From: Candidatus Poseidoniaceae archaeon
GTDB taxonomy: Archaea > Thermoplasmatota > Poseidoniia > Poseidoniales > Poseidoniaceae
Direction of reading: 5' to 3'
Assembly (NCBI GenBank): GCA_943788655.1
Contig: CALSRB010000007.1
Location: 149,774 to 213,773, forward strand
Length of the DNA stretch: 64,000 nt
Shown here: positions 9,834 through 64,000 of the stretch, piece by piece
How the letters are laid out: every line of letters begins with the position of its first letter
How positions within the stretch are numbered: position 1 is the stretch's first letter
Translations under genes and position numbers: made by a program
Notes under the pieces: generated by a model
What the model saw: only the letters and a program-made list of their open reading frames with translations
The model's database searches: none
What the model was told of the DNA's origin: nothing

Positions 9834-11864
9834 TCACTCCATCTTGCTTTGAATGGCTGCTCGTAAAAGAGCACTAACGACCTTTCCGTCCGCCGCGCCC
9901 ACCGTTTGCATGACAACGCCCATCAGAGGGCCCATTGCACCCATACCGCGTTCTTTGACGAAATCTGAGCGTTCTTCGACAATGGTTTGAATGGTTGCAG
10001 CAAGATCGCCCTCATCTGCTGGCTTGTAACCGTTGGCTTCACCATAGGCTGCGATTTGCTCGAGCGTTGGTTGCTGTCCAGCAAACGCTGCAATGATGTC
10101 GTTCATCGATTCTCTTGTGATCTCACCTTGCTCTTTGACCTTGAGAACATTTGCACACAATTCTGGATGCGCTTCATCGTTCTCCAATACCACGCTCGCC
10201 CAACCTTTGTGAGGCATTTCGCCAACATGATCCACGTAGATGTCATCAAGTTCGCGTGCTACGAGTTGCTTTGCTTGGTCTGATGAAACATCGTAGCCAG
10301 CCATACGTTCCTCCCGCTCTTGGTCGCTCATTGGAAGACTCAACATCGTGGATTGCCATCGATCTGAATCAATGACGATTGAAGGGACATCGGTTTCAGG
10401 GTACATCCTCGCACCGCCCGGCAATGGTCGCATTGGAGAAGTTGTTCCATCATCTGGTGCGCCTTTCTTGACGACTACATTACGGACTTCTTGCGGGATC
10501 CTATGCCAAGCCCTTCGAGCGCGCTGAAGAACGCTTTCAAGGGCCAGTTCGGCCTGCCATTGGGGTGCGAGGCAAAGAATGAATCCGTCTTTGGGAGTTA
10601 ATGAAAGTGCGCTACGAACATCATCGACGTGCTCTTGTTCGATGCCGTAAGCTGGAAGTTCGTCTGAATGAAAAACGCCCTTGACACCGGCGAGTTTGGC
10701 AGCGCCGGCAAGTTCTCGACCAAGTCGTGGCAGTTGAGCGCCCTCCTTGTCAAGTTCCTTGATGCCAATCTTGCCATTGAGGCCCGCCAATGGCAGCCCA
10801 AGCATAACATGACCTTTCGAACGACCGCCTTTGACCATTTTCGACTCGCATGAATCGAAAGAAGGTGAAACATCAACGAGTCTGAGTGGTAGATGTTCTG
10901 AAACGGCAGCTGCAATTGAAGATTCCAATTCAGCCTCGTCACTTCGTCGATCTGGTGGGAGTGGGGCGAGGTCAAGCATGCTCCGCAATTCATTCGCCAG
11001 CCGGTAGAAATGCAACTGTCGAGACATTTCCAACCGGATGATGCGAGGAATCCAGTTGAGATCTTGACACCCTTTGATTTCAACTCGGTCACCACAAGCC
11101 AATGACACGTTGAGATCCTGTCGGATGCTACCAAGGCCTCGACGCACCTTTCGGGTTTGCCGCAGCACTCGACCAAGCGCCATTGAGGTGACTTTGGCGT
11201 GTTCTGGCGATGTGACATCGGGTGCTGTTGCGATTTCAATGAGAGGCAATCCCAAGCGGTCGAGGTTGTAGATGACCTGATCACCGTTGGCAGTGGAAAG
11301 GGTGTCTAACTTTCGAGCGCTGTCCTCTTCCAAGCAAAGCACATCGATGCCTACAGGGCCTCCGTCTGTTTGCAACGTCCCGTCTGTAGCGATGAGGGAG
11401 GTTCGTTGGAACCCGCTTGTGTTTGAACCATCGACCACTGTTTTTCTCATGGTTTGAAGCAAGGAAACGGGCTTTGCCTCGAGAAGCGCTGAGACCGTCA
11501 ATGCGATTTGGATGGCGTCTTCATCGTGGTCAAGTGGTGGCTGGTCGTCGAGTTCAATCAGTCCAGCATTGGGGCTTTGAACATAGACGAAGGATCGGTT
11601 TCGGCGAGATTCAAACCGTGCAGCAATGTCGATTGCACCGCCTTCTCCACGAGCAGGACGAAGCTTTCGCTCGAAGCGCTTCCAATCGGATGGAACGGTT
11701 TCAATGGTGATGTCATAGAGAAGTCCTGGTTGACGGGAATGGAGTTTCCCGGTCGCCAATTGCTGGTGCACCTCAATGCCGCACATGAAGCCAAGTTGCT
11801 CAGGAACGAGGGCCGAAGCATCTGCAACTTCACCGACAGGTTCAGTGGTATGAGGTTCGGCCAT
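9834..11864 (-). CDS. gatE: Glu-tRNA(Gln) amidotransferase subunit E
   Basis: CGIEVHQQLATGKLHS, VVDGSNTSGFQRT, LEEDSARK and a C-terminal YqeY-like tail are typical of archaeal GatE. ATG at 11864 (the ORF opens with TTG at 11891). Confidence 0.9.
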   Translation of the reverse strand: MAEPHTTEPVGEVADASALVPEQLGFMCGIEVHQQLATGKLHSRQPGLLYDITIETVPSDWKRFERKLRPARGEGGAIDIAARFESRRNRSFVYVQSPNAGLIELDDQPPLDHDEDAIQIALTVSALLEAKPVSLLQTMRKTVVDGSNTSGFQRTSLIATDGTLQTDGGPVGIDVLCLEEDSARKLDTLSTANGDQVIYNLDRLGLPLIEIATAPDVTSPEHAKVTSMALGRVLRQTRKVRRGLGSIRQDLNVSLACGDRVEIKGCQDLNWIPRIIRLEMSRQLHFYRLANELRSMLDLAPLPPDRRSDEAELESSIAAAVSEHLPLRLVDVSPSFDSCESKMVKGGRSKGHVMLGLPLAGLNGKIGIKELDKEGAQLPRLGRELAGAAKLAGVKGVFHSDELPAYGIEQEHVDDVRSALSLTPKDGFILCLAPQWQAELALESVLQRARRAWHRIPQEVRNVVVKKGAPDDGTTSPMRPLPGGARMYPETDVPSIVIDSDRWQSTMLSLPMSDQEREERMAGYDVSSDQAKQLVARELDDIYVDHVGEMPHKGWASVVLENDEAHPELCANVLKVKEQGEITRESMNDIIAAFAGQQPTLEQIAAYGEANGYKPADEGDLAATIQTIVEERSDFVKERGMGAMGPLMGVVMQTVGAADGKVVSALLRAAIQSKME

Positions 11865-11909
11865 GAGTCCACCCAAGCGTTCATCCTTCAAGATTCAAAC
11901 CCATGAACA

Positions 11910-14042
11910 TCAAGGGATTCCATGGGTGTCATAGCCGCCTGGACGGAACAGACGACCTTCTTGATGGAACTTCTCGAGAATATCTTCTGCTGTGTTTCTG
12001 TCAATCTTGTGGCGTTCAGCTTCGTTGAGCACATCATTGTGTTGAGCAATGCCGTTGTTGTCCACAGCAAGCGTGGACACGATGTTGAACATTGACTTCT
12101 CCCGGTTGCGTGCCGTGCCCTTTTGTCCTGTTTGAAGCGCTGTTTCATCGAAGTTTCCGCCCATGAGATCTTCTCGCCAGAGTCGTGTCAGCCGGATGGC
12201 TCGTTCTGCGTCTTCCAATGTCGCCACTTGTGAGAGGCGAATCCGCGCGCTGGCCTCAGCCAACCGTGCCAATGCTTCGAGGGAACGGGCGGTGATGGCT
12301 ACCGTGTCGGAAAAGTCACCAACTTGCTTACGAGTTTCGACATAGAAATTTACAATTTTCTCGCGCGCCTCGGGAATCATCGATGGATGAATACTTCGTT
12401 TTGCATAGGCCACATACTTTCGAATTAAATCTCGCGAAAGGACTTCGCCATGTGCATCAGATTTCTTGACGCCTGCCTCAGCCGCTGACTTCGATGGATC
12501 TGGTGCTGAGCCTTCATTCACCAGCAATTCACTGACGCCAAGCAATCGAGTGTCGATGATGTGCTTCGCAATCTTTGCATCCTTTTCCATTTCTGGGTCA
12601 TCGGTCAACAACCAAATTACGTCAAATCGAGATACAAGAGGTGGAGCGAGGTTGATTTGTGCCGTGAAAGGTACTTCTGAAACCGGCTCAAAACGACCGC
12701 TTTTGGGGTTCGCTGCAGCGAGAACGGCGCATCGAGTTCGAAGGCTTGCGTTGATACCCGCTTTCGAAATGGAAATTTTCTGTTGTTCCATGGCTTCGTG
12801 CATGCTGGAACGATCACCTTCGTTCATTTTGTCGAATTCGTCAATCGCTGCCAATCCTAGATCGGCAAGAACAAGCGCACCGGCTTCGAGTGTCCAGCGG
12901 CCATCTGCGGCAGCGTCTTGCACCGCTGCTGCCGTGAGACCTGCTGCTGAAGCTGACTGGCCTGAAGTGAACCGTCCACGTGGCGAAATATCGGCCATGT
13001 AGTTGAGAAGTTGCGATTTCGCAACACCGGGGTCCCCCATGAGGAGGATGTGTAGGTCGCCGCGATTTCGGGTTCCATCAGCGTTGAGACGGGCAACACC
13101 GCCAAACAATTGGAGCATAAGCGACCGCTTGACCATCTCCATTCCAAAGATAGAGGGTGCGATGCTGTTGGTGAACACATCGTAGATGTCTGGACGTCGA
13201 GCGAGTTCCTTAATCTCTAATTCTTCATCCTCGGTGATGACGATTTCTTCGAGCGGAATGTTTTGACGTTCAAGGGAATGGATTCGGAGAAAAATATCGA
13301 AAACTGGTGTGTCTTTTCCTCCTTTGCGTTGGGAACGAATGAACAACACACCATTGGCCTTGACGCGGTCACCGGGATTGAGTTTCCCAGCAAGGTCATG
13401 TTCGACAATGCAAAGGATTCGTTCTGGTTGAATTCCACCCTTCATTTGTTCTGGCAATTCTTGCAGTTCAACGAATTGTGAATTGATGAGAATGGAGTCC
13501 TGTTGCTTCAATTCAAACCGAGTTTGACGCTTTGCACGACCGCAACCGCCGTCGATTTGTTGGCATTCAATTGGCTCAATCAATTCTTGTTCGTTCGGCT
13601 GGTTGATGACCATCGTGTGCCCGCAGGCCACACATTCGAAGGTTGCAGCGTAAATCCGTGGACGGACGCCCGTGATTTTAGTCGCAACGGCGTCAATTGC
13701 CAACATATGGCTAATGTCGTCAGCACGCAATTGTGAGACCGTCCGAATCTGATCGCTTGGGAGGTGAACGATGCGAACAAAGGGGTACATGTTGCTGTGT
13801 CCCGCATCGATCAAGAATTGACGAAGGGCTTGGTTTGAGGCGTGAAAGTGGAGTTCTGGATGCTCCACAATGTCATGTGCGAATTCGTGATCGAACCCCT
13901 CAATCACACGGTATGAAACTTCAAGGGATTGTTCGTCAGGCCACATCTGTGCAAGGTTATGCACCGCCTCAGCGAAGTGATCCTGAATGAGGGATGTCCA
14001 GCGAGCGGGAAGGTCAAATTCTTGCAACATTTTGAACACCAT
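11910..14042 (-). CDS. mcm: MCM replicative helicase
   Basis: Zinc motif CVACGH...CQQIDGGCG, Walker A GDPGVAKSQLL, Walker B AAIDEFDKM and arginine finger SRFDVIWLL. There is no intein-sized insertion. ATG at 14042 (TTG at 14084 also possible). Confidence 0.95.
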   Translation of the reverse strand: MVFKMLQEFDLPARWTSLIQDHFAEAVHNLAQMWPDEQSLEVSYRVIEGFDHEFAHDIVEHPELHFHASNQALRQFLIDAGHSNMYPFVRIVHLPSDQIRTVSQLRADDISHMLAIDAVATKITGVRPRIYAATFECVACGHTMVINQPNEQELIEPIECQQIDGGCGRAKRQTRFELKQQDSILINSQFVELQELPEQMKGGIQPERILCIVEHDLAGKLNPGDRVKANGVLFIRSQRKGGKDTPVFDIFLRIHSLERQNIPLEEIVITEDEELEIKELARRPDIYDVFTNSIAPSIFGMEMVKRSLMLQLFGGVARLNADGTRNRGDLHILLMGDPGVAKSQLLNYMADISPRGRFTSGQSASAAGLTAAAVQDAAADGRWTLEAGALVLADLGLAAIDEFDKMNEGDRSSMHEAMEQQKISISKAGINASLRTRCAVLAAANPKSGRFEPVSEVPFTAQINLAPPLVSRFDVIWLLTDDPEMEKDAKIAKHIIDTRLLGVSELLVNEGSAPDPSKSAAEAGVKKSDAHGEVLSRDLIRKYVAYAKRSIHPSMIPEAREKIVNFYVETRKQVGDFSDTVAITARSLEALARLAEASARIRLSQVATLEDAERAIRLTRLWREDLMGGNFDETALQTGQKGTARNREKSMFNIVSTLAVDNNGIAQHNDVLNEAERHKIDRNTAEDILEKFHQEGRLFRPGGYDTHGIP

Positions 14043-14126
14043 AGGACGTTGTTTGCCAACCGAACTTTCATTGTGTAGCGCCAACCGTTTATAGGCGTAT
14101 CTTCAAACACTTGCCACCCCCTCATT

Positions 14127-14186: not shown

Positions 14187-14236
14187 CCGAGCGCCAGAAC
14201 CGCATCATCCATGTGCAACCACCTCAAGGCTCAGCC

Positions 14237-15259
14237 ATGCCCGACCATGCGTTCACCCCGACACTTGGCCTGCTAGACCGGTGGAGTTTCGATTCGCCTT
14301 TGTTGACCAATCGATTGGGAGATCCGACTGTGCGAGAAGTGCTTGTTCACATTCCACCTGAAGGCGTTGAAGCAATGGCTCAAGGCAAACACCTTGGCGT
14401 TGTCATTTACCTCGCTCCCTTCACATCCTCAGGTCCTGCTCGCGCTGGCTGGAAGGCGTTTGCAGAAACGATCCCGCAACGCCATGAGCGGTTGGTTAAG
14501 CAAGGGAAAATGGACCCCGTAATCCTTGTCATGCCCGATACATTCACCAGTCTTGGCGGCAATCAATTCGTCGATTCACCTGTGTTGGGTCAATGGTCTT
14601 CATGGTTGAGTCAAGCGCTCAAGCCCGCTGTGTTTGAACGGTATGCTACCAACGGAAAAGCTGCACTGGTTGGAAAATCTTCAGGCGGCTACGGGGCTGT
14701 TGTCAACGCCATGCTCACACCTGGTTGCTGGGACGCGATTGCATGCCATTCAGGTGATGTCGGCTTTGAGATGATGTTCAAGCCAACCTTTGGAGAAACC
14801 CTGACCCATGTGGCAACTCATGGTGGTGCTGCGGATTACGTCAGCCATGTGGGCGCTGCGCCGAAACTCTCCGGGCCCGACTTTCACACGCTGATGATCT
14901 GTGCAATGGCTGCTTCATACGACCCCAGAGACCCCTCTCCGTCCAATCCACTTGGCATTGAATTGCCAGTCACAGCAAGGACTGGTGAGATCATTCCGGA
15001 TGCATGGGGGCGGTGGTTAGCCTACGACCCATTGGTGATGATCGAGACTCAATCTCAAGGCCTTCGAGAACTAAATGCGATATGGATCGATTGCGGCGAT
15101 CGCGATCAATACAACATCCAGTATGGTTCGAGGCATTTTGTTGATCAACTCACCCAAATGGGCATCGCTCACACATGGGAGGAATTTAGTGGCACACATT
15201 CAGGGATTGACCACCGGTTGGACCTCAGCCTTGCGTTCCTCTCCAACGCTCTCAACTGA
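14237..15259 (+). CDS. alpha/beta-hydrolase, putative esterase family (enterochelin-esterase-like)
   Basis: Nucleophile elbow LVGKSSGGYGA, with downstream acidic/His blocks (DCGDRD, GTHSG) as in the putative esterase family. ATG at 14237 (GTG at 14213 opens the ORF). Confidence 0.7.
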   Translation: MPDHAFTPTLGLLDRWSFDSPLLTNRLGDPTVREVLVHIPPEGVEAMAQGKHLGVVIYLAPFTSSGPARAGWKAFAETIPQRHERLVKQGKMDPVILVMPDTFTSLGGNQFVDSPVLGQWSSWLSQALKPAVFERYATNGKAALVGKSSGGYGAVVNAMLTPGCWDAIACHSGDVGFEMMFKPTFGETLTHVATHGGAADYVSHVGAAPKLSGPDFHTLMICAMAASYDPRDPSPSNPLGIELPVTARTGEIIPDAWGRWLAYDPLVMIETQSQGLRELNAIWIDCGDRDQYNIQYGSRHFVDQLTQMGIAHTWEEFSGTHSGIDHRLDLSLAFLSNALN

Positions 15260-15313
15260 AGAGGCGGAGATTCAAGCCGGATGGTTCTTCAAACGCCTTT
15301 CTTTGGAAAGTTC

Positions 15314-16438
15314 ATGGCCGAACCAATGGATTACGCAAGCGCTGGCGTCGATATCGACCTCGAAGGTTCGGCTGTCGCCTCCCTCATCGCCTCACTGGGG
15401 GGCTCCTCGCGCAAACCCGGCACACCGGGCGCACCCGTGCATCTTCCCGGCGGATTCGGTGGTCTCATCGAATTTGGCGATTCCTTGCTCGCACTTGCTA
15501 CCGATGGTGTTGGCAGCAAATTGCAAATCGCATCAGCGCTCAACCAATGGGGCGGCGTTGGCATTGACTGCATGGCCATGAACGTCAATGACTTGCTGTG
15601 CGTTGGTGCAGAACCAATCGCTTTTGTCGATTATGTCGCTGTTCCGAAGCCCGACCCAGCAACACACGCTGCCCTTGGTGCTTCGTTGGCTGAAGCGTGC
15701 CGACTGGCTCGCGTCACTTTAGCCGGTGGTGAAACAGCCTCGCTCCCTGGAATCGTCACAGAACTTGACCTGTCGGGAACAGCACTTGGCTATGTCAAGA
15801 AAGGCGACACCATCACCGGAGAGAATCTTCGAGCGGATGATGTTTTGATTGGTTTGCCATCTTCAGGCGTCCATTCCAATGGCTACTCATTGGTTCGCAA
15901 AGTGATGGCCCATGTTGGTGCTGAATACACCGACAATGCTCCGTTTGCTGTTGCAAGCGTTGGCCGAACTGTGCTGCGGTTCGATGGCATGGATGACCAA
16001 CCAATCACCCTCGGTGAAGTCTTCCTCAACCCAACCCGAATTTACTGCGACCCTGTTGTCGATTTGCTCCATGCTTGCGCTACCGAAGATGTGGCGTTCT
16101 CAATCAGTGATTTGCATGGCATCTGCCACGTCACTGGTGGGGGATTGTCCAACCTGTTGCGTCTTCATGACAGCCTCGGCTGGCACATTGATTCGCCCCT
16201 CACGCCTCATCCCGAATTCGAATGGTTGCAGTCCGTTGGCGGTATTGAAACCCGTGAGATGTACCGCACCTTCAACATGGGCTGTGGCATGATCCTCGCT
16301 GTGGAAGCGCATCACGCTGAGGCCATCTGTGAGTGGTTAGGCCAACGCATGCAGGGCGTTGCCATCATCGGCGCCGTCAACGACGCAGGCCACAAAGTGA
16401 CCCACGCCATTGAAGGCGTTGAATTCACACACTATTGA
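15314..16438 (+). CDS. purM: phosphoribosylformylglycinamidine cyclo-ligase (AIR synthetase)
   Basis: YASAGVDID, GGFGGL, LATDGVGSKL and GIDCMAMNVNDLLCVGAEP are PurM signatures. Confidence 0.9.
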   Translation: MAEPMDYASAGVDIDLEGSAVASLIASLGGSSRKPGTPGAPVHLPGGFGGLIEFGDSLLALATDGVGSKLQIASALNQWGGVGIDCMAMNVNDLLCVGAEPIAFVDYVAVPKPDPATHAALGASLAEACRLARVTLAGGETASLPGIVTELDLSGTALGYVKKGDTITGENLRADDVLIGLPSSGVHSNGYSLVRKVMAHVGAEYTDNAPFAVASVGRTVLRFDGMDDQPITLGEVFLNPTRIYCDPVVDLLHACATEDVAFSISDLHGICHVTGGGLSNLLRLHDSLGWHIDSPLTPHPEFEWLQSVGGIETREMYRTFNMGCGMILAVEAHHAEAICEWLGQRMQGVAIIGAVNDAGHKVTHAIEGVEFTHY

Positions 16439-16443
16439 TGCAA

Positions 16444-19155
16444 TCAAGCTGATGCTTCATCTTCAGAAGCATCCTCTGCAGCAGGTTCATCTGCAACTTC
16501 GGTCTTCATTGCTTCATCAGTTTCGTCCTCAGACATCATCAAGCGAACACCGTTGGCAATCGAGACGAGTGCCAAGAGGTAGAACAAGACGGTGATGGTG
16601 TCGATAGGGTTGTCGAAGTTGCTCCAGTAGCCAAAGAATTCCTGGTTGGTCACAATCTTGGATTCCAAGTCTTCTGCATCGCTGTCTGTGATTTCTCCTG
16701 AGGAGACAATCTTGAACACCGGCTGGAGGTCGTCGATCGTTGGGGCTTCGTTCATTGCTGTGATTGGCCGAGAATCAAGGTAGAAGTACGATTCAGAACT
16801 TCCTGCGATTGCAGCTTGGCTCACTTGTTCGACGTCCATTGAGACATCGCTACCAAAGTACACTGGTAGAGCGCCGGGCACTGCATCGAGCAAGGTGTCG
16901 GTGTCCAACAACTTTGCTTGGATGTTGCGGGTCAGCGGGTCGAGGGTTGCTGTGCACGTGTCGACTGGGATACCCTTGAGAGTGCGCGTTCCTTCGCAAA
17001 CGATTGGAGCGGTCGCGTAGCCTGAAAGGTCGACGGTGTTGTCACCGTCGGCAAGGAAGCCACCGATGGTGCCAGATCGCTGTTCTGCGCTGACCAAGCC
17101 AAAGGTGTTCGCCATCTTGGCAGGATCCTTCCAGGAGAAGTAAGAACTGCCGTCGATTGCAAGGGTTGTGCCCTTGTCGCAGCTGTCCGATTCACCCGTA
17201 CAGATGGTGTACATAGTTCCGGTTGAGGCAACAATGCCACCGGATCCGTAGTAAGTTGCGTTCGATTCAAGGCTGGTCCAACCGACGGTCATGTCCATCG
17301 GGTTGCCGCTAGCGAGGAAAGCGGACACAGGGTCGTGCCATCCGAGCAACCAGTTGTTGAATTCTTGGCTGAGGTACGGAGATGTCCCAAAGGAATCAAT
17401 GAGGAATTCTGGAACAAAGTCGCCAAAGATGGCTCCAAACATGAAAGCGCGCATGGCGCCAGCAGCATTTTCATCGACGCCGTAAAGGGCTGCAATGGTG
17501 GCTGTGTTCCATTCCATAGGCGTCCCTGGGCCCATGGTTGCGAAGTCAATTGGAGGGGTCATGCCGCTCAATTCTCCGTAGAGGAATACGGTAGCGCCGG
17601 TCGTCGTGGTCAAGCCAAGTGGTCCGTAGAGGACATTTCCTGTTTGTGATTGGTTCAAGTTGACAGCTGGAGCGCCCTCGCTTCCGGGAACAAGTGCTGT
17701 GCCCCATGCTCCACCCATGTTGAGGGAGTTGGTGAGGTAAGGATCGCCGACTGGGCTCATGCCACCGAAGGTTTGGTTGACGAATTGTTCGGCGTTCATG
17801 GTACCAACGCTTCCGAGGAGGCCGAGTTGCACTGAGGTAGCAGAGGTTGCCCATCCGCCAGCCCAAGTTGCGACTGCACCATATTGTTCCATGGTGAGAT
17901 TGTATGCAGCCATAGCGTCTGCAGGCTCCATGGTGAGGAAGGCAGCAAGACCGAAGCCTGTGCCATCAGCGTTTGTAGCAATCAAACCGGTTGGCGTGTC
18001 GGTCATGTGACCAGCGACCATGAGTGCAATGCCGTTTGCACCAGCGAAGTCGACACCCAAGAGGTTGTGAAGTCGGCTGGTGATGTCATCGTTGTTGCTT
18101 GCGTTAAAGTCAGATCCGCCGCCATAGCCAGCCATGCTGCTTCCAACAGCTGCGTACATGGTCCAATCTCGAATAAAGGTCGTGTAGAAGTCGGGAATTG
18201 GGGTCTCAGGGGTACCATCGCCGTCCAAGTCTGCAATGGTATCAATACTGACGTAGCCGTAGGTCGTTGCTCGTGCCATTACAGTGGAGTTTGCCGGATC
18301 TGCCATCACATCAGCGACGAGTGTTTCGGGCTCGCCCATACCGACGAAAGCAACTGGACCTAGAGGGGTCTTCAGCGAGATGTTGAATGCTGCGTCAAAG
18401 GGGTGCATGGTGCTGTCCATGGCAGCGTCAAGAACGCCTGCTGACCAGTCGCCTGATGCGTTGGAGAGGTTATCATCGTTGTTCGCAGCCTTGATGCCTG
18501 CATATGATGCGTCCGCCTTCCATGTTTCTTCTGCTCCTATAGCCCAAAGGTGACAAGGGGCGTACATGCCCATTCCAGCATAACACATGTCTGCTGTTGT
18601 AGCAGTGCCCGCTTGGGTCGTGTTCATGTCTTGGTTGATCATTTGTGCTGCAAATCCGACCTTCGTAAGGTCCATGATGCCGGCCATTGCTGTGCCCGTT
18701 GCACCAATGACTTGTGGCATGAAACCGATGTTGAGTTGGTTGATTTGAACATCACAAGGAACAACGGTGTCGACTGAGCACGCATAGGAAGTGTTCTCGT
18801 GGTAGGTAATCTCGCCAGAAGTGGCGTTGTGTTCCATTAGATGGCGGTCTGAGGTGATGGTGTAAGTGACTGGGCCAACCTGATCGTAGATTGGTTCGTC
18901 ACCAGCAAGAACCCCACCGAGGTTGGTGATGTTCCATGCGTAGAAATCACGGTCCGTACTGGAACTTGCCCAGTCGGCTTCGATTTCTGTGCAGTCGTCG
19001 TTTGAACAGATAGCATCCTTTGGCGCTTCTGCTGTGGCTTCTGCAACTGCATCAGGCACGGCGCCTGTGGCAATTGGGGCGATTAGGGCTAGGTTCAATA
19101 TGAGGAACATAAGACCTGCCCCGAGCATTGCTTTATCCGATTTTAATATCGACAT
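16444..19155 (-). CDS. two-TM surface protein with CD36/LIMP-2/SR-B-family-like blocks and a large insertion
   Basis: N-terminal TM (LGAGLMFLILNLALIAPIA) and C-terminal TM (ITVLFYLLALVSIANGVRLMM) followed by an acidic tail. The luminal part contains DFYAWNITNLGG..EPIYDQVGPVTYTI, NWLLGWHDPVSAFL, LKGIPVDTC, LPVYFGSD and YFYLDSRPITA, in the same order as the conserved CD36-family blocks (see finding). Confidence 0.55.
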   Translation of the reverse strand: MSILKSDKAMLGAGLMFLILNLALIAPIATGAVPDAVAEATAEAPKDAICSNDDCTEIEADWASSSTDRDFYAWNITNLGGVLAGDEPIYDQVGPVTYTITSDRHLMEHNATSGEITYHENTSYACSVDTVVPCDVQINQLNIGFMPQVIGATGTAMAGIMDLTKVGFAAQMINQDMNTTQAGTATTADMCYAGMGMYAPCHLWAIGAEETWKADASYAGIKAANNDDNLSNASGDWSAGVLDAAMDSTMHPFDAAFNISLKTPLGPVAFVGMGEPETLVADVMADPANSTVMARATTYGYVSIDTIADLDGDGTPETPIPDFYTTFIRDWTMYAAVGSSMAGYGGGSDFNASNNDDITSRLHNLLGVDFAGANGIALMVAGHMTDTPTGLIATNADGTGFGLAAFLTMEPADAMAAYNLTMEQYGAVATWAGGWATSATSVQLGLLGSVGTMNAEQFVNQTFGGMSPVGDPYLTNSLNMGGAWGTALVPGSEGAPAVNLNQSQTGNVLYGPLGLTTTTGATVFLYGELSGMTPPIDFATMGPGTPMEWNTATIAALYGVDENAAGAMRAFMFGAIFGDFVPEFLIDSFGTSPYLSQEFNNWLLGWHDPVSAFLASGNPMDMTVGWTSLESNATYYGSGGIVASTGTMYTICTGESDSCDKGTTLAIDGSSYFSWKDPAKMANTFGLVSAEQRSGTIGGFLADGDNTVDLSGYATAPIVCEGTRTLKGIPVDTCTATLDPLTRNIQAKLLDTDTLLDAVPGALPVYFGSDVSMDVEQVSQAAIAGSSESYFYLDSRPITAMNEAPTIDDLQPVFKIVSSGEITDSDAEDLESKIVTNQEFFGYWSNFDNPIDTITVLFYLLALVSIANGVRLMMSEDETDEAMKTEVADEPAAEDASEDEASA

Positions 19156-19179
19156 AAACAGATAAGGAAAGCAATTGTG

Positions 19180-19187
19180 GTATAAGC
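19180..19187 (-). promoter_or_regulatory. TATA-like GCTTATAC about 29 nt upstream of the ATG at 19155
   Basis: The minus strand reads ATGCTTATACC. The spacing suggests a leaderless or very short-leader mRNA. Confidence 0.3.
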
Positions 19188-19292
19188 ATTGGTGCGTTTT
19201 ACAACACCAAGTGCACCATCTTGAAGAATTTGGCTTGCGCCGATGGGCTCAGTCATCGGTGCGGTCATGAACAAGCAGTTGCACGCAACATC

Positions 19293-20657
19293 ATGGCCGA
19301 GGGGGGAGACGAACGCATCGACCTCCCCGGCTGGCCCGGCCATGTATGGCTTGAAGGGCGCACCCTTGTCCACATGCAAGAGGAACAGGAACGTCCAACT
19401 CACATGCCAAGAGGGCCTGCCAAACGCACAGGGCCTGGTTTTCTCAATCCAGCAATGGCCCCGGCTCGGACGCGCAGTGTGATGTTGTTAGCGGACGCAC
19501 TTGAGCACGACTGGTTAGTCAAGGCCGATCGCCCCATTCGTGCACTCGATGCATTGTGCGCAACAGGTGTTCGCATTCGACGTTGGCGAAATGAAATTCC
19601 CGGGCCGCTTCAGCAGCGACTGCGCATCACGGCCAACGACTTGGACGAATTCGCACTCGCATGGGCCGCAACATCTCATGAACTTCATCCACCTTCGACG
19701 CCAGTTGAACACGAGGCCGAAGACGATCGTCACGGTCAGAAATCCTCTGCGGTGTTCGACAACGGACTCCACTTTCAACGCCTTGATGCCCGAATGGCCA
19801 TGGTTGATGCCGCCTATCAATGGGTGGATTTGGATCCGTTTGGCTCACCCATTCAATTCCTTGATGCCGCTTTGCAGAGTCTTTCGCGCACTGGGGTGCT
19901 GGAGGTGACGGCCACAGATACCGCTGCACTGACTGGATCTTCAGCCTCGAGTCAGGCACGACGTTATCAGGCCAAAGGAATCGTTGATGAGTACGCTCAT
20001 GACGATGCAGTGAGGTTGTTGGTGGGGACTGTTGCCACAACCGCTGCAAGGCTCGACAAGGTTGTCACCCCCCTTCTTGCATTGTTCGATGGCCATCATG
20101 TTCGAATTTCTTTGCTGGTCAGAACAAGCAAATCAGAAGCCACTGCGATTGGCAAATCGATTGGATGGCGAGTAAGAACGGAGGGGGTCCCCTATCAATT
20201 CGTTCAGCATCCTACACCTGAGCAATTGCCAAATGCGAGTGGTCCGTTGTGGATTGGACCATTGTGGCACAAGGACATCGCAGGCCGAATGACAGAGGCG
20301 CGCGCCTTGGAATTGTGTTCACCGAGCGCTGAGGAAATCACAGAATATCAGAAAGCTGGCTTGGTATGGGGTGACGATGACATCGAATACTCGGGTCGGG
20401 AATTACGAAGAAGCGTGCGGTACATCGCACAAGCTGCCGACCTCATGAGCAGGGAGCATTTGCTGCTCAACCTCGATGCGTTGCCCCGTTTAGCTGGCGT
20501 GGGAGGGGCGCCGAAAATGGATAAACTGCTCGAATCGCTCGCTGAAATGGGCCACGCTTCCGCACGCTATCCGGATTTGGAACCAATGCTTGTGACCGAT
20601 GCACCGTTTGACGATGTAATTCAAGCGGTGAAGAACGCTCGTGATTCAACCGACTGA
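19293..20657 (+). CDS. trm1: tRNA (guanine26-N2)-dimethyltransferase
   Basis: FLNPAMAPARTRSV, ALDALCATGVR, DLDPFGSPIQFLDAA and VTATDTAALTG are Trm1 blocks. ATG at 19293 chosen (the ORF is open from 19221). Confidence 0.85.
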   Translation: MAEGGDERIDLPGWPGHVWLEGRTLVHMQEEQERPTHMPRGPAKRTGPGFLNPAMAPARTRSVMLLADALEHDWLVKADRPIRALDALCATGVRIRRWRNEIPGPLQQRLRITANDLDEFALAWAATSHELHPPSTPVEHEAEDDRHGQKSSAVFDNGLHFQRLDARMAMVDAAYQWVDLDPFGSPIQFLDAALQSLSRTGVLEVTATDTAALTGSSASSQARRYQAKGIVDEYAHDDAVRLLVGTVATTAARLDKVVTPLLALFDGHHVRISLLVRTSKSEATAIGKSIGWRVRTEGVPYQFVQHPTPEQLPNASGPLWIGPLWHKDIAGRMTEARALELCSPSAEEITEYQKAGLVWGDDDIEYSGRELRRSVRYIAQAADLMSREHLLLNLDALPRLAGVGGAPKMDKLLESLAEMGHASARYPDLEPMLVTDAPFDDVIQAVKNARDSTD

Positions 20658-21407
20658 AGGGTCGCGTGATGGATCGTCCAACACATCAATTTCAGGACCG
20701 GGGAGCATTGTCCTTGAATTTTCAATGACTTCTTGGACGCTCGATTCGATGGTCTGTGCGTTTTCAAGGAGTTCGGTCAGCGGAATTTCAATGCCTGTCA
20801 ACTCGCCAATCGCTTCCACAGCAAGAGCCGCTGCACGAGCATCGGGGTAAAGCGGGCTGGCTTCTGCAAGAAGGGCGGTGACATCGATGCCAAGTCGGTC
20901 GCCTTCGCCGAGTAAGAAACCTGTAATTCCGGCCACAATGCCTTGTTGAATTGGTTCGATTCCGGAATTACGAAGTCGAGCACGGGCTGCTTCGGATGAG
21001 CCGACACCAAACAATTGACCTGTGGTCACATCTCCAGATGCAACCAATCCATCGATAATGATCAGGCGATCAAAACTGCCCTTCGTGAACCATTCCAGCA
21101 CCGTTGATGCGAACATGATGTCTTGTTCATTCTTGAACTGAATTTCAGAAGTAAAGACACCGATGCCGTCGCCTTGATAGACACGCACGGGGTGTTTTGG
21201 AACCTCGTTGTGGATGAGTGCGACCGCAGGGAACTCCGCATTGAGAACTGTCCCGAGCTGCCGCATTTTGAGAGTCTTGATGATGTGTGAGGCAGCGATG
21301 ACACCAACCATTCCAGCTGTCGTAAACCCTGCGATGGCAACACCGCCAGTTCGTGGATCTGCACCGTCTTGCAAAACAAGTGCGTACCCCTTGAACTCAT
21401 GCTCCAT
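20646..21407 (-). CDS. PAC2-family proteasome assembly chaperone (paralog 1)
   Basis: VAIAGFTTAGMVGVIAASHII ... LYPDARAAALAVEAI is the PAC2-family pattern. It overlaps the trm1 3' end by 12 nt (convergent). Confidence 0.7.
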   Translation of the reverse strand: MEHEFKGYALVLQDGADPRTGGVAIAGFTTAGMVGVIAASHIIKTLKMRQLGTVLNAEFPAVALIHNEVPKHPVRVYQGDGIGVFTSEIQFKNEQDIMFASTVLEWFTKGSFDRLIIIDGLVASGDVTTGQLFGVGSSEAARARLRNSGIEPIQQGIVAGITGFLLGEGDRLGIDVTALLAEASPLYPDARAAALAVEAIGELTGIEIPLTELLENAQTIESSVQEVIENSRTMLPGPEIDVLDDPSRDPSVG

Positions 21408-21464: not shown

Positions 21465-24400
21465 TTAGTCTTCCCAAACAGCCCAGTCTTCCCAGCCTTC
21501 TTCTCGGTACCACCAAACGCCTTCTTCATCTTCCCACCACTCAGTGCCATTTTCATCGACACTGATGCCGTCGTCATCTTCGCCTTCCTCGCTTGTTTCT
21601 TCGTCTTCGAGTGCTTCCTCAAGGTCTTCGACTTCCGTCTCGTCATAGGACTCGACTGTGTTGTTGTCGAATTCATCGAAGAGGCTGGGCCGTTGATCTT
21701 TCGGACCTTCGATGTCGTCCAGTGACCGTCCTTCATTGTGCAATTGATCGAGTGACTTACTGGTTGGTTTGGTTGGTTTTTCGATGATTTCGGGTTCAAC
21801 ATCATCAATTGATTCTGCATACCAATCGTCTTCTTCATCGTCAGACTTTCGCAGCAGGATGACACCTGCGCCACCTGCGATGAGCGCAAGGATGCCAATG
21901 ATGCTTCCAATGATGAGTGGGGCATTGCTCTTGGTGCCATCTGAATCGGTGTCGACTGGGGTGTCAACTTCCGGTGCTTCGCCAAGCGTCCATTGCAATT
22001 CACCTTCAGTGCTTGCTGTGGGCGTGGTCATGGAGTCACACTGATTGGCTCCGCCGAGTTCCGAGCATGAGAAGAAAACAACGTAGCCCACACCCTGAAT
22101 TCCTGGGAACAAACCATCGGATGGCCCATTGCGAACCGGCGAGAATTCCACTTGGACTGAGCCCTCCGCAGAAATGGTGATGATTGGCGCACTGCCCACA
22201 CCAAAAGGCGCCTCAAAGGTGACTGGCGGAGGGGTTGTTGGCGTCACTTTCCAAGAAAACCCGAGGAACACATCAAACGGATTCGGATTGGTGATGGTAC
22301 ACATGATGGGGGCATCGGTGCCATCGTCAATCCAAGGGTAGGTCGCTGTCCCACAATCAACAGCGCCTGGTAGTGTGGCGTCTGGGAATGTGGGCTCTTG
22401 TGTGGTGTTGGTGTCGTTCGTACCGTTGCCACCTGTGGTTTGATTGGAGCCCGTATCTGGGCCACCGGTGAAGGTGAACATGAGTGGGTTCATTGAAGGG
22501 ACAATCCATGATTTTGATGCATCGGAAGTGAGGACAAGTGTGTCGGTCGCATTGGCCGTTCCCGAGAGGATGATTTGCCCACCTTTGACTTCCACATCGC
22601 CTGTGCTGGTGACATTACCGCTCGCATCCTTTTGTTCCCATGTGTATACAAGGCCCTCAAGGTATGTGTTCTGAGTTGGCAATTCAGCAACGATGTTCAC
22701 TTCGAGGTCGAAGACGCCCTCGTCGTCAAGATTGAGTTGGGTCCCCTGCGTGGTAATGTCTGCTCGCAGGAGCCCAAGACCTTGGAGGGTCAAGTTCGCG
22801 GGTCCAACCGGTTGCATGGTTGGCGATCCGGTCGTGCCGAGGTATTCGATCGTCATCGAGGCGCTGTCAAAGAAGGTGATGAACGTCCCGCCAAGTTCGG
22901 TCAGGTCTTCTGCTTCGATGGCTTGCCACACTCCTGATGAGTCGGTCGTTCCAGAGAGTTCAACATCGACCCCTGATGCCTCAATGGTGAGGCTTACGAG
23001 TTCCCCTTCAAGGGGCACACCGTCTGCAGTCAACGTGATGTTGAGGTGCAGGGAATCGAGCGCGCTCAGGCCAAAACCACCATCATCGTACGTACTTGAG
23101 GTCGAAAGATCGTACTCGATCAAGGCCGTGCGTTGGGAATTGTTGAGAGAGATCACGGGTCCGAGGGCGCTGAACGAAGTGGTTGCGTTTCCGTACTCAT
23201 CGAACGCAACAACTGCAGCATAGTAATCTGTGCCGTCGATGATTGTGAGGCCTTCATCAACCGTTGAAAGAACCATGATTTGGTTTTCAGTCGAGTGTTC
23301 AATGGTGGCAATCGGTTGCAATACGTCAATTTCTTCAATGGCTTGGGTTTCGAGGTAGACCCCGTATTCAACAGCGCCATCAATGGAAATATTCCAAGAA
23401 AGATCGAGCGAACCCCCCTCATCACCAGGGGTGTCAACGAAATTGAAACCTGCCACTGCGGCCGGGGGGGCCGGGAAAGGAACGGTGACCGTTAGAGGGG
23501 CAGACATGTTGCTCGTCACGCCATAGGAATGCAGCGAGCGAACGCCGTAGACATACGAAGTTCCATGGTCAACTTCGCCATCAACCGTCGTATTGGCGCC
23601 TGATGTTGTGTAAGGGGAGGTCAAGTCAAACGAAACACCGGGTGCTGCCCTAAACACTTCGAATTCAATCAAGTCATCACCGAATTCAATCATGTCTTGC
23701 CATTCGAGTTGAACACGATCTGAAGTTAACTCTGTCACAGAAACGACAGGGGTTGGGGGCAGCGAAATGTTCGGCGCACCGGGGCTGTATTGAGCAACCA
23801 GTCCGGACACGGAAAAGACGCCAGAGAGTGTTGAATTCACTGGAAGAGTGACAACAAAGTTACCAACACCTGCCGTTTGTTGTTGGTTGATGATGTTGGT
23901 CAGGTTTCCTGCCGAAAACGGATTGTTTTCAACAATGAAGTCTGCATCGTAGCCGATGTCCATCGAAGAGAGGTTGAAGGTCCCATCAGCCGTGTTTGTG
24001 AAAGCAAAGCTGACGCTGGAGAGACGCACGCCATAGCCATCTGCGTTGTATGGCAACGCATTCATCAGCGGCGAGAGTCTTGAGGTCATGTTGCCCAATG
24101 GGTCGAGGATGTACAGTGGTTCCATGCCGTACGCTGCATCACCTGCATAGCCTTCGACACCAAGGTCATCCTGGCCATCATCATCAATGTCCATTGTCAC
24201 ATGTTGCCAGCTGGCGATGAACAATCCGCTGGAAAGTTCACCTGCAGCCACGATGTGTTCAACAACGCCATCACCGTTCATGTCGATTGCTTTGACATTG
24301 GTTGGAATGGACCATGGTTGGACCACGGAGGTGCTCACCCCCACTGCGGTTGAGTTGAGAGCGTACGCTGTGAGGTTCCCCTCCACCGTCAGTGCGCTTC

Positions 24401-25736: not shown

Positions 25737-25907
25737 GGTGTTCACGATGTGACTGTGGGTGGACGCCCTTCAAGTTCCTTACGGCGAAGTTGGAGAGTAT
25801 ACGGGAAAAAGCGGTGTTCTCCTGTTGATTCAGGCGTGTTTGTATGTTGACGAGAATTCTAAAGGGTTATAGTACACAGGTTAGAACTAACAATTGAGGA
25901 GAACACC

Positions 25908-28047: not shown

Positions 28048-28121
28048 GGCCCTATAGTGTAGCTTGGATATCACGCCGGCTTGCGGAGCCAGCAACCCGT
28101 GTTCGAATCGCGGTGGGGCCG
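28048..28121 (+). tRNA. tRNA-Arg (anticodon GCG)
   Basis: Hand-folded cloverleaf. Acceptor GGCCCTA/TGGGGCC (one T-G pair). D-loop AGCTTGGATA. Anticodon stem CCGGC/GCCAG (one C-A mismatch) with loop TTGCGGA (GCG at 28083-28085, G37). T-arm CCGTG-TTCGAAT-CGCGG. Discriminator G. No encoded CCA and no intron. Confidence 0.8.
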
Positions 28122-38476: not shown

Positions 38477-38550
38477 GGATTTTGCTGTGCCGTGGCCTAT
38501 GAGAGTGTTTTGGTTGGATGATTGAACAAACGAGGCTTTCGACACCCGTC

Positions 38551-46489: not shown

Positions 46490-46583
46490 GGTCCAATCTT
46501 CGCATGCCTTCCATATCAATCCAAAGGGTCCGCGTCATTCGATTCGAATGGTTCGAACCACTGACTGAGAATGAAAGATCAGG

Positions 46584-46658
46584 TGGGCCCGCCCAGATTT
46601 GAACTGGGGTCTGACGGCCCCCAGCCGCCAAGTATAGGCCAAGCTAACCCACGGGCCC
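46584..46658 (-). tRNA. tRNA-Pro (anticodon GGG)
   Basis: Hand-folded on the minus strand. Acceptor GGGCCCG/CGGGCCC. D-loop with GG. Anticodon stem GGCGG/CCGTC with loop CTGGGGG. T-arm CCCAG-TTCAAAT-CTGGG. Discriminator A. It lies 27 nt downstream of the rpoN stop on the same strand. Confidence 0.85.
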
Positions 46659-58952: not shown

Positions 58953-59303
58953 GTTTTTCACTTCCTATTTTTTTGGTTGTTGTTACACAGAGAACCCGCT
59001 GTTCTCTCTTTCCAGATTGCTGGCCCAGCTGGTGGGAAGGCAATTCTGGGATTGTGTTGATGCTGCGCACTGAATCATGTTGTTTTCCAAGCGCTCAACA
59101 AGGGGGTAAATGGACACTTTAGCAACGCTAAAATGTGCATCGAACTGGCTCGCAGTTCTTTGATTCTGTCCCTTGCTGTATGTCTTGTCTTGATCCTCCG
59201 AATGCATCGTTATTTCACGGGTCGGTCATAGGGAACCCAACGTTCCCTCTGATAACCACAACAGTCCGACCCTATATGAAAGGCGCGACGCGATGTTTGG
59301 GGG

Positions 59304-62131: not shown

Positions 62132-62351
62132 GCAGTGGGTAGGGAGTGTACTGGGGAACTGAACACCCATTGTACTCCCACATAATCTCATGAGGGGTTT
62201 GCAAGAACCCTCGTGATTCCGTGGGAATGATATGTCGGTTGGCTGTATCAACCCACAAGAGACGGTGTGAACTTTTCTAGAATATTTGAGGGTATTCTGC
62301 TCGGTTCCTGCGACTTCGTGGTAATGATATGTTGTAAGATTTAACAGATTA

Positions 62352-63980: not shown

Positions 63981-64000
63981 ATCTACCCCTGTAAGCGATA

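What the first reader, a model, noticed from the sequence alone, without database searches (positions are those of the whole stretch)
16444..19155. Archaeal homolog of the eukaryotic CD36/LIMP-2/SR-B scavenger-receptor family with a ~400-aa insertion
The topology is CD36-like, with N- and C-terminal TM helices around a large ectodomain. The ectodomain carries, in the right order, blocks that match what I remember of the CD36 family. These pair as follows: DFYAWNITNLGG..EPIYDQVGPVTYTI...NATSGEITY with FWIFDVQNPQEV..IQVKQRGPYTYRV...NVT..NTVSF; NWLLGWHDPVSAFL with ELLWGYRDPFLSL; RTLKGIPVDTC with NLKGIPVYRF; ALPVYFGSD with RPVYISLPHF; YFYLDSRPITA with TYLDIEPITG. Between the first and second blocks (residues about 160-590, nt about 17386-18678) there is about 400 aa of extra sequence, including a DLDGDG loop. 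CD36-family proteins form a lipid/fatty-acid tunnel and are regarded as essentially eukaryotic. An archaeal member would matter for the family's origin and could be a lipid or hydrophobic-substrate uptake device in a heterotrophic marine archaeon.
Basis: partly seen in the sequence, partly recalled or inferred. Interest (0 to 1): 0.75.

Follow-up and report, generated by a model that had tools for sequence, protein, structure and literature searches.

The report
Archaeal CD36-family surface protein, novel apex
A marine Group II archaeon encodes a real, conserved relative of the animal CD36/LIMP-2 lipid-scavenger receptors, a family described in the literature only from eukaryotes, carrying an extra ~375-residue domain on its tip; it is a plausible fatty-acid or lipid uptake device in some of the ocean's most abundant archaea.

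Summary
ORF 16444-19155 (-) encodes a 903-aa protein with two transmembrane helices. It hits Pfam CD36 (PF01130) at 47.5 bits against a 26.5-bit cut-off, and so do all 15 divergent family members tested (best E 1.3e-19). Profile-profile comparison with mammalian LIMP-2/CD36 gives 95% probability for the N-terminal part. The C-terminal part aligns collinearly over 248 columns with a score of 34.9, against a maximum of 29.3 in shuffled controls. A confident AlphaFold model (pLDDT 82.5) retrieves only CD36 and LIMP-2 as its 13 best PDB matches. The extra sequence, refined to residues 188-561, sits between two long apex helices. It is mostly helical, matches nothing known, and is under purifying selection like the barrel. 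The DLDGDG loop is lineage-specific. The gene lies in a conserved archaeal housekeeping block in about 20 Poseidoniaceae genomes and in independent assemblies, so it is neither a chimera nor contamination. Every labelled member is Poseidoniales (MGIIa and MGIIb), and MGIIb carries a tandem paralog pair. Databases already tag some members "CD36 family protein", but I found no paper that discusses them. A lipid or fatty-acid uptake function is inferred, not shown. The origin (ancient transfer versus shared ancestry) is unresolved.

The parts
16444..19155 (-). Complete gene for the 903-aa CD36-family protein (stop codon 16444-16446)
   Evidence: ORF listing. Pfam PF01130 at 47.5 bits against a 26.5-bit cut-off. 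More than 460 full-length homologs.
19060..19128 (-). N-terminal transmembrane helix (residues ~10-32), preceded by a short Lys-containing cytoplasmic stub
   Evidence: Hydropathy. AlphaFold helix 7-40. hhalign pairs it with the LIMP-2 N-terminal TM helix.
18595..18978 (-). N-terminal CD36 block (residues 60-187): long beta-strands 64-76, 90-110, 115-126 and 137-141, then the 43-residue ascending apex helix 145-187
   Evidence: This fragment alone hits Pfam CD36 at 39.3 bits. hhalign 95.1% probability, E 3.1e-8. PDB profile search finds only LIMP-2 and CD36. DSSP of the model.
17473..18594 (-). Family-specific apex insert (residues 188-561, 374 aa). It is mostly alpha-helical. The first half (188-337) is variable and indel-prone, and the second half (338-561) is as conserved as the barrel.
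   Evidence: No Pfam family. No PDB sequence or fold match attributable to it. No relatives outside the family among 1.84e9 representatives, apart from a DxDGDG-repeat protein. Most 10-residue blocks have pLDDT of ~84-96. 22 invariant positions. dN/dS ~0.10-0.15. hhalign against eukaryotic CD36 scores 16.8, which is background.
18214..18231 (-). DLDGDG loop (residues 309-314) at the tip of a beta-hairpin (strands 304-308 and 318-321). It looks like a calcium-binding loop and is lineage-specific.
   Evidence: Present in only some members and deleted in others. The region is gap-prone. The only non-family hit to it is a 4561-aa protein with 69 such repeats.
16642..17472 (-). C-terminal CD36 block (residues 562-838): descending apex helix 562-589, the NNWLLGWHDP motif (600-609), and barrel strands carrying LKGIPV (726-731), ALPVYFGS (762-769), FYLDSRPIT (791-799) and PVF (812-814)
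   Evidence: Collinear hhalign of 248 columns against LIMP-2 141-434, score 34.9, E 4.3e-4, well above the controls. Foldseek aligns 303-359 columns to CD36/LIMP-2 chains of 378-400 residues. 30 invariant positions.
17254..17262 (-). Invariant N632-A-T634 sequon, a candidate N-glycosylation site in the LESNATYYGS motif
   Evidence: Conserved in 89 of 89 aligned sequences. Glycosylation itself is inferred, not shown.
16531..16605 (-). C-terminal transmembrane helix (residues ~851-875)
   Evidence: Hydropathy. AlphaFold helix 850-876.
16447..16530 (-). Short, poorly conserved acidic cytoplasmic tail (residues 876-903)
   Evidence: Alignment: 51% gaps and low conservation. pLDDT below 50.

Best explanation
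The gene encodes a genuine archaeal member of the CD36/LIMP-2/SR-B superfamily. It is a surface protein anchored by an N-terminal and a C-terminal transmembrane helix, and it is probably N-glycosylated and disulfide-bonded. Its ectodomain is the CD36-type asymmetric beta-barrel, built from residues ~60-144 and ~590-838. Two long helices (145-187 and 562-589) replace or extend the eukaryotic three-helix apex and carry a conserved, family-specific, mostly helical 374-residue domain at the tip farthest from the membrane. That much is shown. By analogy with CD36, SR-B1 and LIMP-2, I infer the mechanism: the apex domain captures a hydrophobic ligand or its carrier (free long-chain fatty acids, or lipids on algal debris, vesicles or particles), and the barrel's internal tunnel passes it to the outer leaflet of the cell membrane, feeding the fatty-acid degradation pathway found in all Poseidoniales genera. 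The gene was already present in the common ancestor of MGIIa and MGIIb. Its link to the eukaryotic family is ancient, most simply an old transfer between an early eukaryote and the Poseidoniales stem. I put homology and fold at about 0.93 confidence and the lipid-uptake mechanism at about 0.45.
For: Sequence homology:
- Pfam CD36 gives E 1.2e-12, 47.5 bits against a 26.5-bit cut-off.
- All 15 members down to 29% mutual identity hit it, best E 1.3e-19.
- A PDB profile search returns only LIMP-2 (1.7e-5) and CD36 (0.012).
- hhalign against mammalian LIMP-2/CD36 gives 95.1%, E 3.1e-8, over 146 columns from TM1 to the apex helix.
- The C-terminal half aligns collinearly over 248 columns with score 34.9, against a control maximum of 29.3.

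Fold:
- The AlphaFold model was built from an archaeal-only alignment: pLDDT 82.5, pTM 0.73.
- Its 13 best PDB matches out of 350,542 chains are all CD36 or LIMP-2, with E 8.6e-6 to 4e-3, probability 1.00 and 303-359 aligned columns.

Topology: two hydrophobic helices, an invariant sequon and co-occurring Cys pairs in the ectodomain.

A real, selected gene: dN/dS is 0.06-0.15 in both barrel and insert.

Genomic setting:
- Synteny is conserved in about 20 genomes and in independent assemblies.
- There are 309 loci in GTDB species genomes.

Functional context:
- Fatty-acid degradation genes occur in all Poseidoniales genera, and straight-chain fatty acids are proposed as growth substrates (PMC6461757; PMC6864105).
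- CD36 binds palmitate in its cavity, and even the distant bacterial LmcA barrel has lipid-sized cavities (PMC8972800).
- Eukaryotic SR-Bs also diversify by expansions at the apex (PMC10715195).
Against: - No coordinates were available, so I could not examine whether a continuous hydrophobic tunnel exists.
- Foldseek TM-scores normalised to the target are only 0.38-0.42, with rmsd of 6-10 A.
- The C-terminal profile match alone has only 34% HH probability, and Pfam does not detect that part on its own.
- The canonical three-helix apex and the metazoan disulfides are not conserved.
- The neighbouring genes are housekeeping (PurM, Trm1, PAC2, MCM) and give no functional link to lipid metabolism.
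- No expression or biochemical data exist.
- The organism is uncultured.
Confidence: 0.6

Rival explanations
1. Same fold, but it acts mainly as a surface receptor or adhesin. The large apex domain would bind a macromolecular partner (algal or particle surface, another cell, an S-layer component, or a virus that exploits it as a receptor), with no through-tunnel lipid transport.
For: CD36-family proteins are multi-ligand receptors whose apex is the ligand-sensing region and the site of lineage-specific expansion (PMC10715195). The archaeal apex domain is large, conserved and unique. MGII genomes are rich in adhesion proteins, and this window alone holds FG-GAP, PKD and TSP3-repeat giants (PMC6461757). 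The first half of the insert is variable and indel-prone.
Against: The barrel is the most conserved part and has the lowest dN/dS (0.06-0.12). That would be unexpected if it were only a stalk. The gene sits in a stable core-genome block and not in a variable island. The whole protein shows purifying selection and not an arms-race signature.
Confidence: 0.22
2. Same fold, but working outward. It would act as an envelope-biogenesis factor that holds or shuttles a lipid-linked or hydrophobic molecule from the membrane to the cell surface, as proposed for bacterial LmcA in lipoglycan synthesis.
For: LmcA is the next-best structural match after CD36 and LIMP-2 (E ~0.03). It is proposed to be a lipid-binding cell-wall biosynthesis protein and is essential in mycobacteria (PMC8972800). 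The gene is widespread in the order, is embedded among housekeeping genes and is strongly conserved. MGII are predicted to have unusual mixed membranes (PMC6461757).
Against: Sequence similarity is to eukaryotic CD36, not to LmcA, and no LmcA-type Pfam hit appears. No envelope-synthesis genes are adjacent. Whether the gene is universal in Poseidoniales was not established.
Confidence: 0.12
3. It is not an archaeal gene at all: eukaryotic contamination or a chimeric assembly join.
For: The family is otherwise known from eukaryotes. Three related loci are in MAGs labelled as bacteria.
Against: GC content is uniform across the region. Both flanks are archaeal housekeeping genes. The same eight-gene order occurs in about 20 genomes and in independent JGI assemblies, including a 454-kb contig. 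The 'bacterial' contigs share their flanks with Poseidoniales contigs, so they are mis-binned. There are no introns, and the ORF is continuous.
Confidence: 0.01
4. The resemblance to CD36 is convergent or due to chance, and the protein belongs to an unrelated fold.
For: Identity is low: ~24% in the N-terminal block and 9-13% in the structural alignments. TM-scores are below 0.5.
Against: Three independent lines agree: Pfam above its gathering score in every member, profile-profile matches in both halves with the same order of motifs, and exclusive CD36/LIMP-2 top ranks in the fold search. The two-TM topology is also identical.
Confidence: 0.03

Closest known systems
Eukaryotic CD36 / SR-B family (Pfam PF01130): CD36, SCARB1, LIMP-2/SCARB2, insect SNMP and Croquemort, Dictyostelium Lmp proteins
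   Same: Two-TM hairpin topology with short cytoplasmic tails. The N-terminal motifs (F-x-x-x-N-x-T-N ... G-P-x-T-Y) and the C-terminal motifs occur in the same order. The asymmetric beta-barrel ectodomain has helices at the apex. The surface domain is rich in sequons and cysteines. Lineage-specific expansion falls at the apex, as reported for several eukaryotic clades (PMC10715195).
   Different: It is found in an archaeal order. A 374-aa conserved helical domain with no detectable relatives is inserted at the apex, making the ectodomain about twice as long. Two very long helices take the place of the compact three-helix bundle. The metazoan disulfide pattern is absent: the Cys pairs here are 50/55, 126/134, 191/201, 652/659 and 720/734. 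Sequence identity is only ~10-25%. The tunnel and ligand are unverified.
Mycobacterium smegmatis LmcA (MSMEG_0317; PDB 7n3v, 7shw)
   Different: It shows no detectable sequence similarity to the archaeal protein. It has a single protruding helix instead of an apex bundle or domain, and it is much smaller (~260 aa). The match is far weaker than to CD36 or LIMP-2.
Eukaryotic SR-Bs with apex expansions (for example oomycete, ciliate and Dictyostelium SR-Bs in Boohar et al. 2023)
   Same: A conserved barrel core with extra helical sequence added at the apex.
   Different: I did not compare the sizes or sequences of those eukaryotic expansions with the archaeal insert. The archaeal insert is a single, order-wide conserved domain under purifying selection, and the hhalign comparison with mammalian CD36/LIMP-2 gave only background scores (16.8).

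Membership tests
CD36 / SR-B family (PF01130) | Significant match to the curated family profile above its gathering score | tested here: met
   47.5 bits against 26.5, E 1.2e-12. 15 of 15 divergent members match, best E 1.3e-19. Precomputed PF01130 hits are recorded on nearly all of the homologs listed.
CD36 / SR-B family (PF01130) | Hairpin topology: N- and C-terminal TM helices, short cytoplasmic ends, one large ectodomain | tested here: met
   Only two hydrophobic segments, at 10-35 and 851-875. The model has helices 7-40 and 850-876. hhalign pairs TM1 with the LIMP-2 TM1.
CD36 / SR-B family (PF01130) | Conserved N-terminal motifs on the long barrel strands (M1 and M2 of Boohar et al.) | tested here: met
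   RDFYAWNITN...VGPVTYTI aligns with QFYFFNVTN...VGPYTYRE. G94, P95 and Y98 are invariant or nearly invariant. I did not have the published motif matrices, so the correspondence with M1 and M2 is by position.
CD36 / SR-B family (PF01130) | Collinear homology of the C-terminal half, including the C-terminal strand motif | tested here: met
   hhalign of 248 columns, residues 565-838 against LIMP-2 141-434, score 34.9, E 4.3e-4. Controls: 14.7+-2.4, 21.0+-2.7 (max 29.3), reversed 15.4. Caveats: HH probability is only 34%, and Pfam alone misses this part.
CD36 / SR-B family (PF01130) | Asymmetric beta-barrel ectodomain fold | tested here: met
   The model has pLDDT 82.5. Foldseek's top 13 PDB hits are all CD36 or LIMP-2, with probability 1.00, E down to 8.6e-6 and 303-359 aligned columns. 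Caveat: TM normalised to the target is 0.35-0.42.
CD36 / SR-B family (PF01130) | [quoted passage not shown] | tested here: inconclusive
   Helices are present at the equivalent place, at 145-187 and 562-589, and both align with the same LIMP-2 apex helix. A 374-aa domain is intercalated between them. Bundle geometry could not be inspected without coordinates.
CD36 / SR-B family (PF01130) | Continuous internal hydrophobic tunnel or cavity | not testable with these tools
CD36 / SR-B family (PF01130) | Metazoan ectodomain disulfide pattern (C-terminal half) | tested here: not met
   The archaeal cysteines form five near-neighbour pairs at other positions, and these are present in only 45-83 of 89 members. 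In the hhalign alignment the LIMP-2 cysteines are not matched by archaeal cysteines. This pattern is treated as a metazoan trait, not a family-wide one (section heading in PMC10715195).
CD36 / SR-B family (PF01130) | Lipid or lipoprotein ligand binding and transfer | not testable with these tools
   This needs biochemistry. There is only contextual support: fatty-acid degradation genes across Poseidoniales.
LmcA-type bacterial barrels | Sequence or profile similarity to LmcA; a small single-domain barrel with one protruding helix | tested here: not met
   No Pfam family other than CD36 appears. The Foldseek E of ~0.03 is 3-4 orders of magnitude weaker than for CD36 and LIMP-2.

The most novel reading that the evidence does not exclude
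The Poseidoniales clade is not a recent pick-up from a eukaryote. It would be an ancient lineage that branches outside (sister to) all eukaryotic SR-Bs, or that donated the family to stem eukaryotes. In that case the CD36 lipid-tunnel receptor, thought to be a LECA-era invention tied to the phagosome, has a prokaryotic origin. Its 374-aa apex domain would be a previously unseen ligand-capture fold, used by some of the ocean's most abundant archaea to harvest lipids.
Probability: 0.2. Interest if true: 0.88.

Novelty: new variant of a known kind. Interest (0 to 1): 0.7.

Why it matters
The SR-B/CD36 family is treated in the literature as eukaryotic. It has been traced to the last eukaryotic common ancestor and linked to the phagosome proteome (PMC10715195). 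A conserved, order-wide archaeal clade makes two questions directly testable.

1. Where did the family come from? A phylogeny that combines this clade, broad eukaryotic sampling and LmcA-type barrels can distinguish ancient transfer, in either direction, from deeper ancestry.

2. How do Marine Group II archaea, which are abundant, uncultured and predicted to degrade fatty acids, take up hydrophobic substrates across a single membrane? No uptake route has been proposed, and this protein is a concrete candidate.

The apex domain is also a sizeable, confidently modelled domain with no detectable relatives, which makes it worth a structure determination.

Tried and rejected
- The first AlphaFold run used 23 close homologs and gave pLDDT 42.8 and pTM 0.30. 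I discarded it without a fold search and replaced it with a run on an 89-sequence, 26-95% identity alignment.
- Pfam on the C-terminal third alone gave no hit. Pfam on the insert alone gave only a sub-threshold DUF1561 match at E 0.1.
- NCBIfam gave nothing.
- phmmer with the single sequence against PDB was only marginal, at E 0.43. It took family profiles to reach significance.
- The Foldseek viral library gave nothing below E 0.8.
- The exhaustive representative search found no family beyond this one. The top 150 hits are this family or its fragments, plus one DxDGDG-repeat protein, and 37 weaker hits were not listed.
- An exact-sequence look-up of the window's protein is not on record, so I used a 91%-identical ortholog instead.
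- Literature searches for CD36 together with archaea, MGII, Euryarchaeota or horizontal gene transfer gave no relevant paper.
- I considered and rejected eukaryotic contamination or a chimera, bacterial carriers (mis-binned contigs) and a second copy in this window (none).
- I did not attempt a eukaryote-archaeon phylogeny. The only eukaryotic sequences I could retrieve were mammalian, so the tree would say nothing about origin.
Full report
**What is there.** The window carries a 2,712-nt ORF at 16444..19155 on the minus strand, encoding 903 aa. Hydropathy shows only two hydrophobic helices, at residues ~10-35 and ~851-875. They flank an ~815-aa ectodomain that is acidic and rich in Ala, Gly and Thr. 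The ectodomain has 13 N-x-S/T sequons and ten cysteines arranged as five near-neighbour pairs. GC content is uniform across the region.

The flanking genes are archaeal housekeeping genes:
- a GatB/GatE-family gene (9834-11891)
- MCM (11910-14084)
- an esterase (14213-15259)
- PurM (15281-16438)
- Trm1 (19221-20657)
- a PAC2 proteasome-assembly homolog (20646-21407)
- a 1,426-aa FG-GAP protein (21465-25745)

**Is it CD36-like? Sequence evidence.**
- Pfam's CD36 profile (PF01130) matches at 47.5 bits, E 1.2e-12, against a curated cut-off of 26.5. NCBIfam has nothing.
- The first 200 residues alone give 39.3 bits. The insert (186-600) and the last 343 residues alone give no significant Pfam hit.
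- A search of 5.8 billion clustered proteins found 460 relatives, the listed ones being mostly full length. An exhaustive HMMER scan of 1.84 billion representatives found just 187 hits. Most are fragments, about 14 are full-length clusters at 50% identity, and no other family appears among the 150 listed.
- All 15 members, spanning 29-50% identity to the query, hit Pfam CD36, with a best E of 1.3e-19.
- A profile of those 15 searched against every PDB sequence returns only LIMP-2 (E 1.7e-5) and CD36 (E 0.012). A weak second collinear stretch pairs NNWLfGWrDP with LIMP-2 ELLWGYKDE.

I then built a eukaryotic profile. The LIMP-2 and CD36 ectodomain sequences were verified as identical to PDB 4q4f_A and 5lgd_A and expanded with 23 mammalian sequences.
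- hhalign of the 89-sequence archaeal alignment against this profile gives 95.1% probability, E 3.1e-8, over 146 columns. The match runs from the N-terminal TM helix to the apex helix.
- Tested separately, residues 555-850 align collinearly over 248 columns with LIMP-2 141-434, score 34.9, E 4.3e-4.

| hhalign comparison | Score |
|---|---|
| Real C-terminal alignment | 34.9 |
| Column shuffles | 14.7 +- 2.4 (max 23.4) |
| 15-column block shuffles, which keep motifs but scramble their order | 21.0 +- 2.7 (max 29.3) |
| Reversed profile | 15.4 |
| Insert against eukaryotic profile | 16.8 |

The C-terminal half is therefore homologous too, although much more diverged than the N-terminal block.

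**Structure.**
- The first AlphaFold model came from a shallow alignment, was poor (pLDDT 42.8) and was discarded.
- With 89 non-redundant archaeal sequences (26-95% identity, no eukaryotic sequences, no templates) the model reached mean pLDDT 82.5 and pTM 0.73. It is disordered only at the termini and in two short loops.
- Its secondary structure runs in this order: TM1; long strands 64-76, 90-110, 115-126 and 137-141; a 43-residue helix 145-187; a mostly helical region up to ~561; a 28-residue helix 562-589; strands and short helices up to 821; helix 824-836; TM2.
- Foldseek against 350,542 PDB chains returns CD36 (5lgd) and LIMP-2 chains as the 13 best hits. E runs from 8.6e-6 to 4e-3, probability is 1.00, and 303-359 columns align with 316-400-residue targets. 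Target-normalised TM is 0.35-0.42.
- That many aligned columns cannot come from the N-terminal block alone. The modest TM-scores are a real caveat. A remodelled apex and a ~375-residue insertion could account for them, but I could not check this.
- The next hits are M. smegmatis LmcA (E ~0.03). Its authors had already noted a CD36-like barrel with lipid-sized cavities (PMC8972800).
- The viral structure library gives nothing.

**The insert.**
- I place it at residues 188-561 (nt 17473-18594), between the two long helices. Both of those helices align with the same LIMP-2 apex helix. The insert is therefore at the apex, the membrane-distal ligand-sensing end, where eukaryotic SR-Bs also show lineage-specific expansions (PMC10715195).
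- It has no Pfam, PDB-sequence or fold match.
- It is present in every family member.
- Conservation: mean top-residue frequency is 0.58 against 0.66-0.69 for the barrel, with 22 invariant positions. Residues 338-537 are as conserved as the barrel, and residues 188-337 are variable and indel-prone.
- The DLDGDG loop (309-314) lies in that variable part and is absent from many members.
- dN/dS against six orthologs is 0.06-0.12 for the barrel and 0.10-0.15 for the insert. dS is near saturation, so these values are approximate.
- The sequon N632-A-T is invariant in 89 of 89 sequences.

**Whose gene is it?**
- A scan of one genome per GTDB species found 309 loci. The best 80 are Poseidoniales, covering Poseidoniaceae (MGIIa), Thalassarchaeaceae (MGIIb) and Poseidonia, or carry generic archaeal labels.
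- Three loci sit in MAGs labelled Rhodobiaceae, Salipiger and Yoonia. They share their flanks with Poseidoniales contigs, so they are mis-binned.
- The most divergent clusters that carry names are also Thalassarchaeaceae or Thalassarchaeum. One is already named 'CD36 family protein' by NCBI, as is P0078.
- The eight-gene block FG-GAP, PAC2, Trm1, CD36-like, PurM, esterase, MCM, GatE is conserved in about 20 genomes. It is also conserved in independent JGI assemblies of a 91%-identical ortholog, found on 28 contigs including one of 454 kb. This rules out a chimera or contamination.
- Four MGIIb-type loci carry two head-to-head paralogs, ~52% and ~30% identical to the query, and both hit Pfam CD36. 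The window has a single copy.

**How it most likely works.** What is shown: a CD36-family barrel on two TM anchors, with a new conserved apex domain, under purifying selection, across the order Poseidoniales. What is inferred: as in CD36, SR-B1 and LIMP-2, the apex binds a hydrophobic ligand or its carrier, and the barrel tunnel conducts it to the membrane.

The biological fit is good. All Poseidoniales genera encode fatty-acid degradation, and straight-chain fatty acids and lipids are proposed substrates (PMC6461757; PMC6864105). Neither paper mentions CD36 or an uptake route.

The rivals are a pure receptor or adhesin role, and an outward, envelope-biogenesis role like that proposed for LmcA. 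The housekeeping gene neighbourhood does not discriminate between them.

**Comparison and novelty.** The protein passes the sequence, topology and fold tests for CD36-family membership. The canonical three-helix apex is inconclusive, and the metazoan disulfide pattern is absent. It is best described as a new variant of a known kind: an archaeal clade with a unique apex domain.

The most detailed evolutionary survey of the family covers 165 eukaryotes, infers presence in LECA and does not mention prokaryotes. Six further literature queries found no report of archaeal members. Automated annotation has, however, already attached the CD36 label to some of them.

The origin is open. Restriction to one archaeal order against breadth across eukaryotes favours an old eukaryote-to-archaeon transfer into the Poseidoniales stem. 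The deep divergence (~10-25% identity, and 29% between archaeal paralogs) shows the event was ancient. I could not build an informative phylogeny with only mammalian eukaryotic sequences to hand.

Noticed in passing
window 57204-58961 (-): A 585-aa ORF with bacterial-type thrombospondin type-3 repeats (PF18884, E 8.9e-11). It lies in a stretch with extreme AT skew (-0.26 to -0.29), and long overlapping ORFs on both strands indicate a compositionally biased repeat protein. Thrombospondin is a classic CD36 ligand in animals (through type-1 repeats, from my own knowledge), so this is probably a coincidence.
   Followed up: partly
window 48857-56956 (-), 41795-46519 (-), 35948-38698 (-), 21465-25745 (-): A run of giant putative surface proteins: 2,699 aa (DUF4129, plus a sub-threshold carboxypeptidase-regulatory-like match), 1,574 aa (no Pfam hit), 916 aa (PKD) and 1,426 aa (FG-GAP). 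This is typical MGII adhesion-type cargo.
   Followed up: partly
window 62001-64000; ORF 62352-63980 (-): GC drops from ~0.52 to 0.40 at the very end of the window. The 542-aa ORF there has no Pfam hit. It may be an island boundary or foreign DNA.
   Followed up: no
L024 3347-5899 (-) and 5986-8595 (+); also L028, L042, L069: Thalassarchaeaceae-type genomes carry two divergently transcribed CD36-like paralogs side by side, ~52% and ~30% identical to the window protein. Both are clear Pfam CD36 hits.
   Followed up: partly
L051, L064, L078: These contigs sit in MAGs labelled Rhodobiaceae, Salipiger bermudensis and Yoonia, yet they carry the archaeal gene and share whole flanks with Poseidoniales contigs. 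This is binning contamination in public MAGs.
   Followed up: yes
window 46582-46658 (-): ARAGORN calls a tRNA-Pro(GGG) here, but Rfam's tRNA model does not reach its gathering score at this site. The other two tRNAs (Arg-GCG at 28048, Cys-GCA at 60819) are found by both.
   Followed up: no
window ~19143-19403 (-); L081 4813-5013: A small ORF lies just upstream of the CD36-like start codon, on the same strand, and overlaps it. It is 86 aa in my ORF list and is called as 66 aa in JGI annotations of orthologous contigs. It sits in the ~330-bp divergent promoter region shared with trm1. Whether it is real or spurious is unknown.
   Followed up: no
window 19221-20657 (+): The mechanical ORF for Trm1 is 478 aa from a TTG start, but orthologous contigs annotate 391 aa. 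The true start is probably about 260 nt further downstream.
   Followed up: no
P0162 (representative library): A 4,561-aa protein matches the family profile only through 69 copies of the DxDGDG-type loop (profile positions 315-353). That loop is a widespread calcium-binding-like repeat and not a CD36 feature.
   Followed up: no
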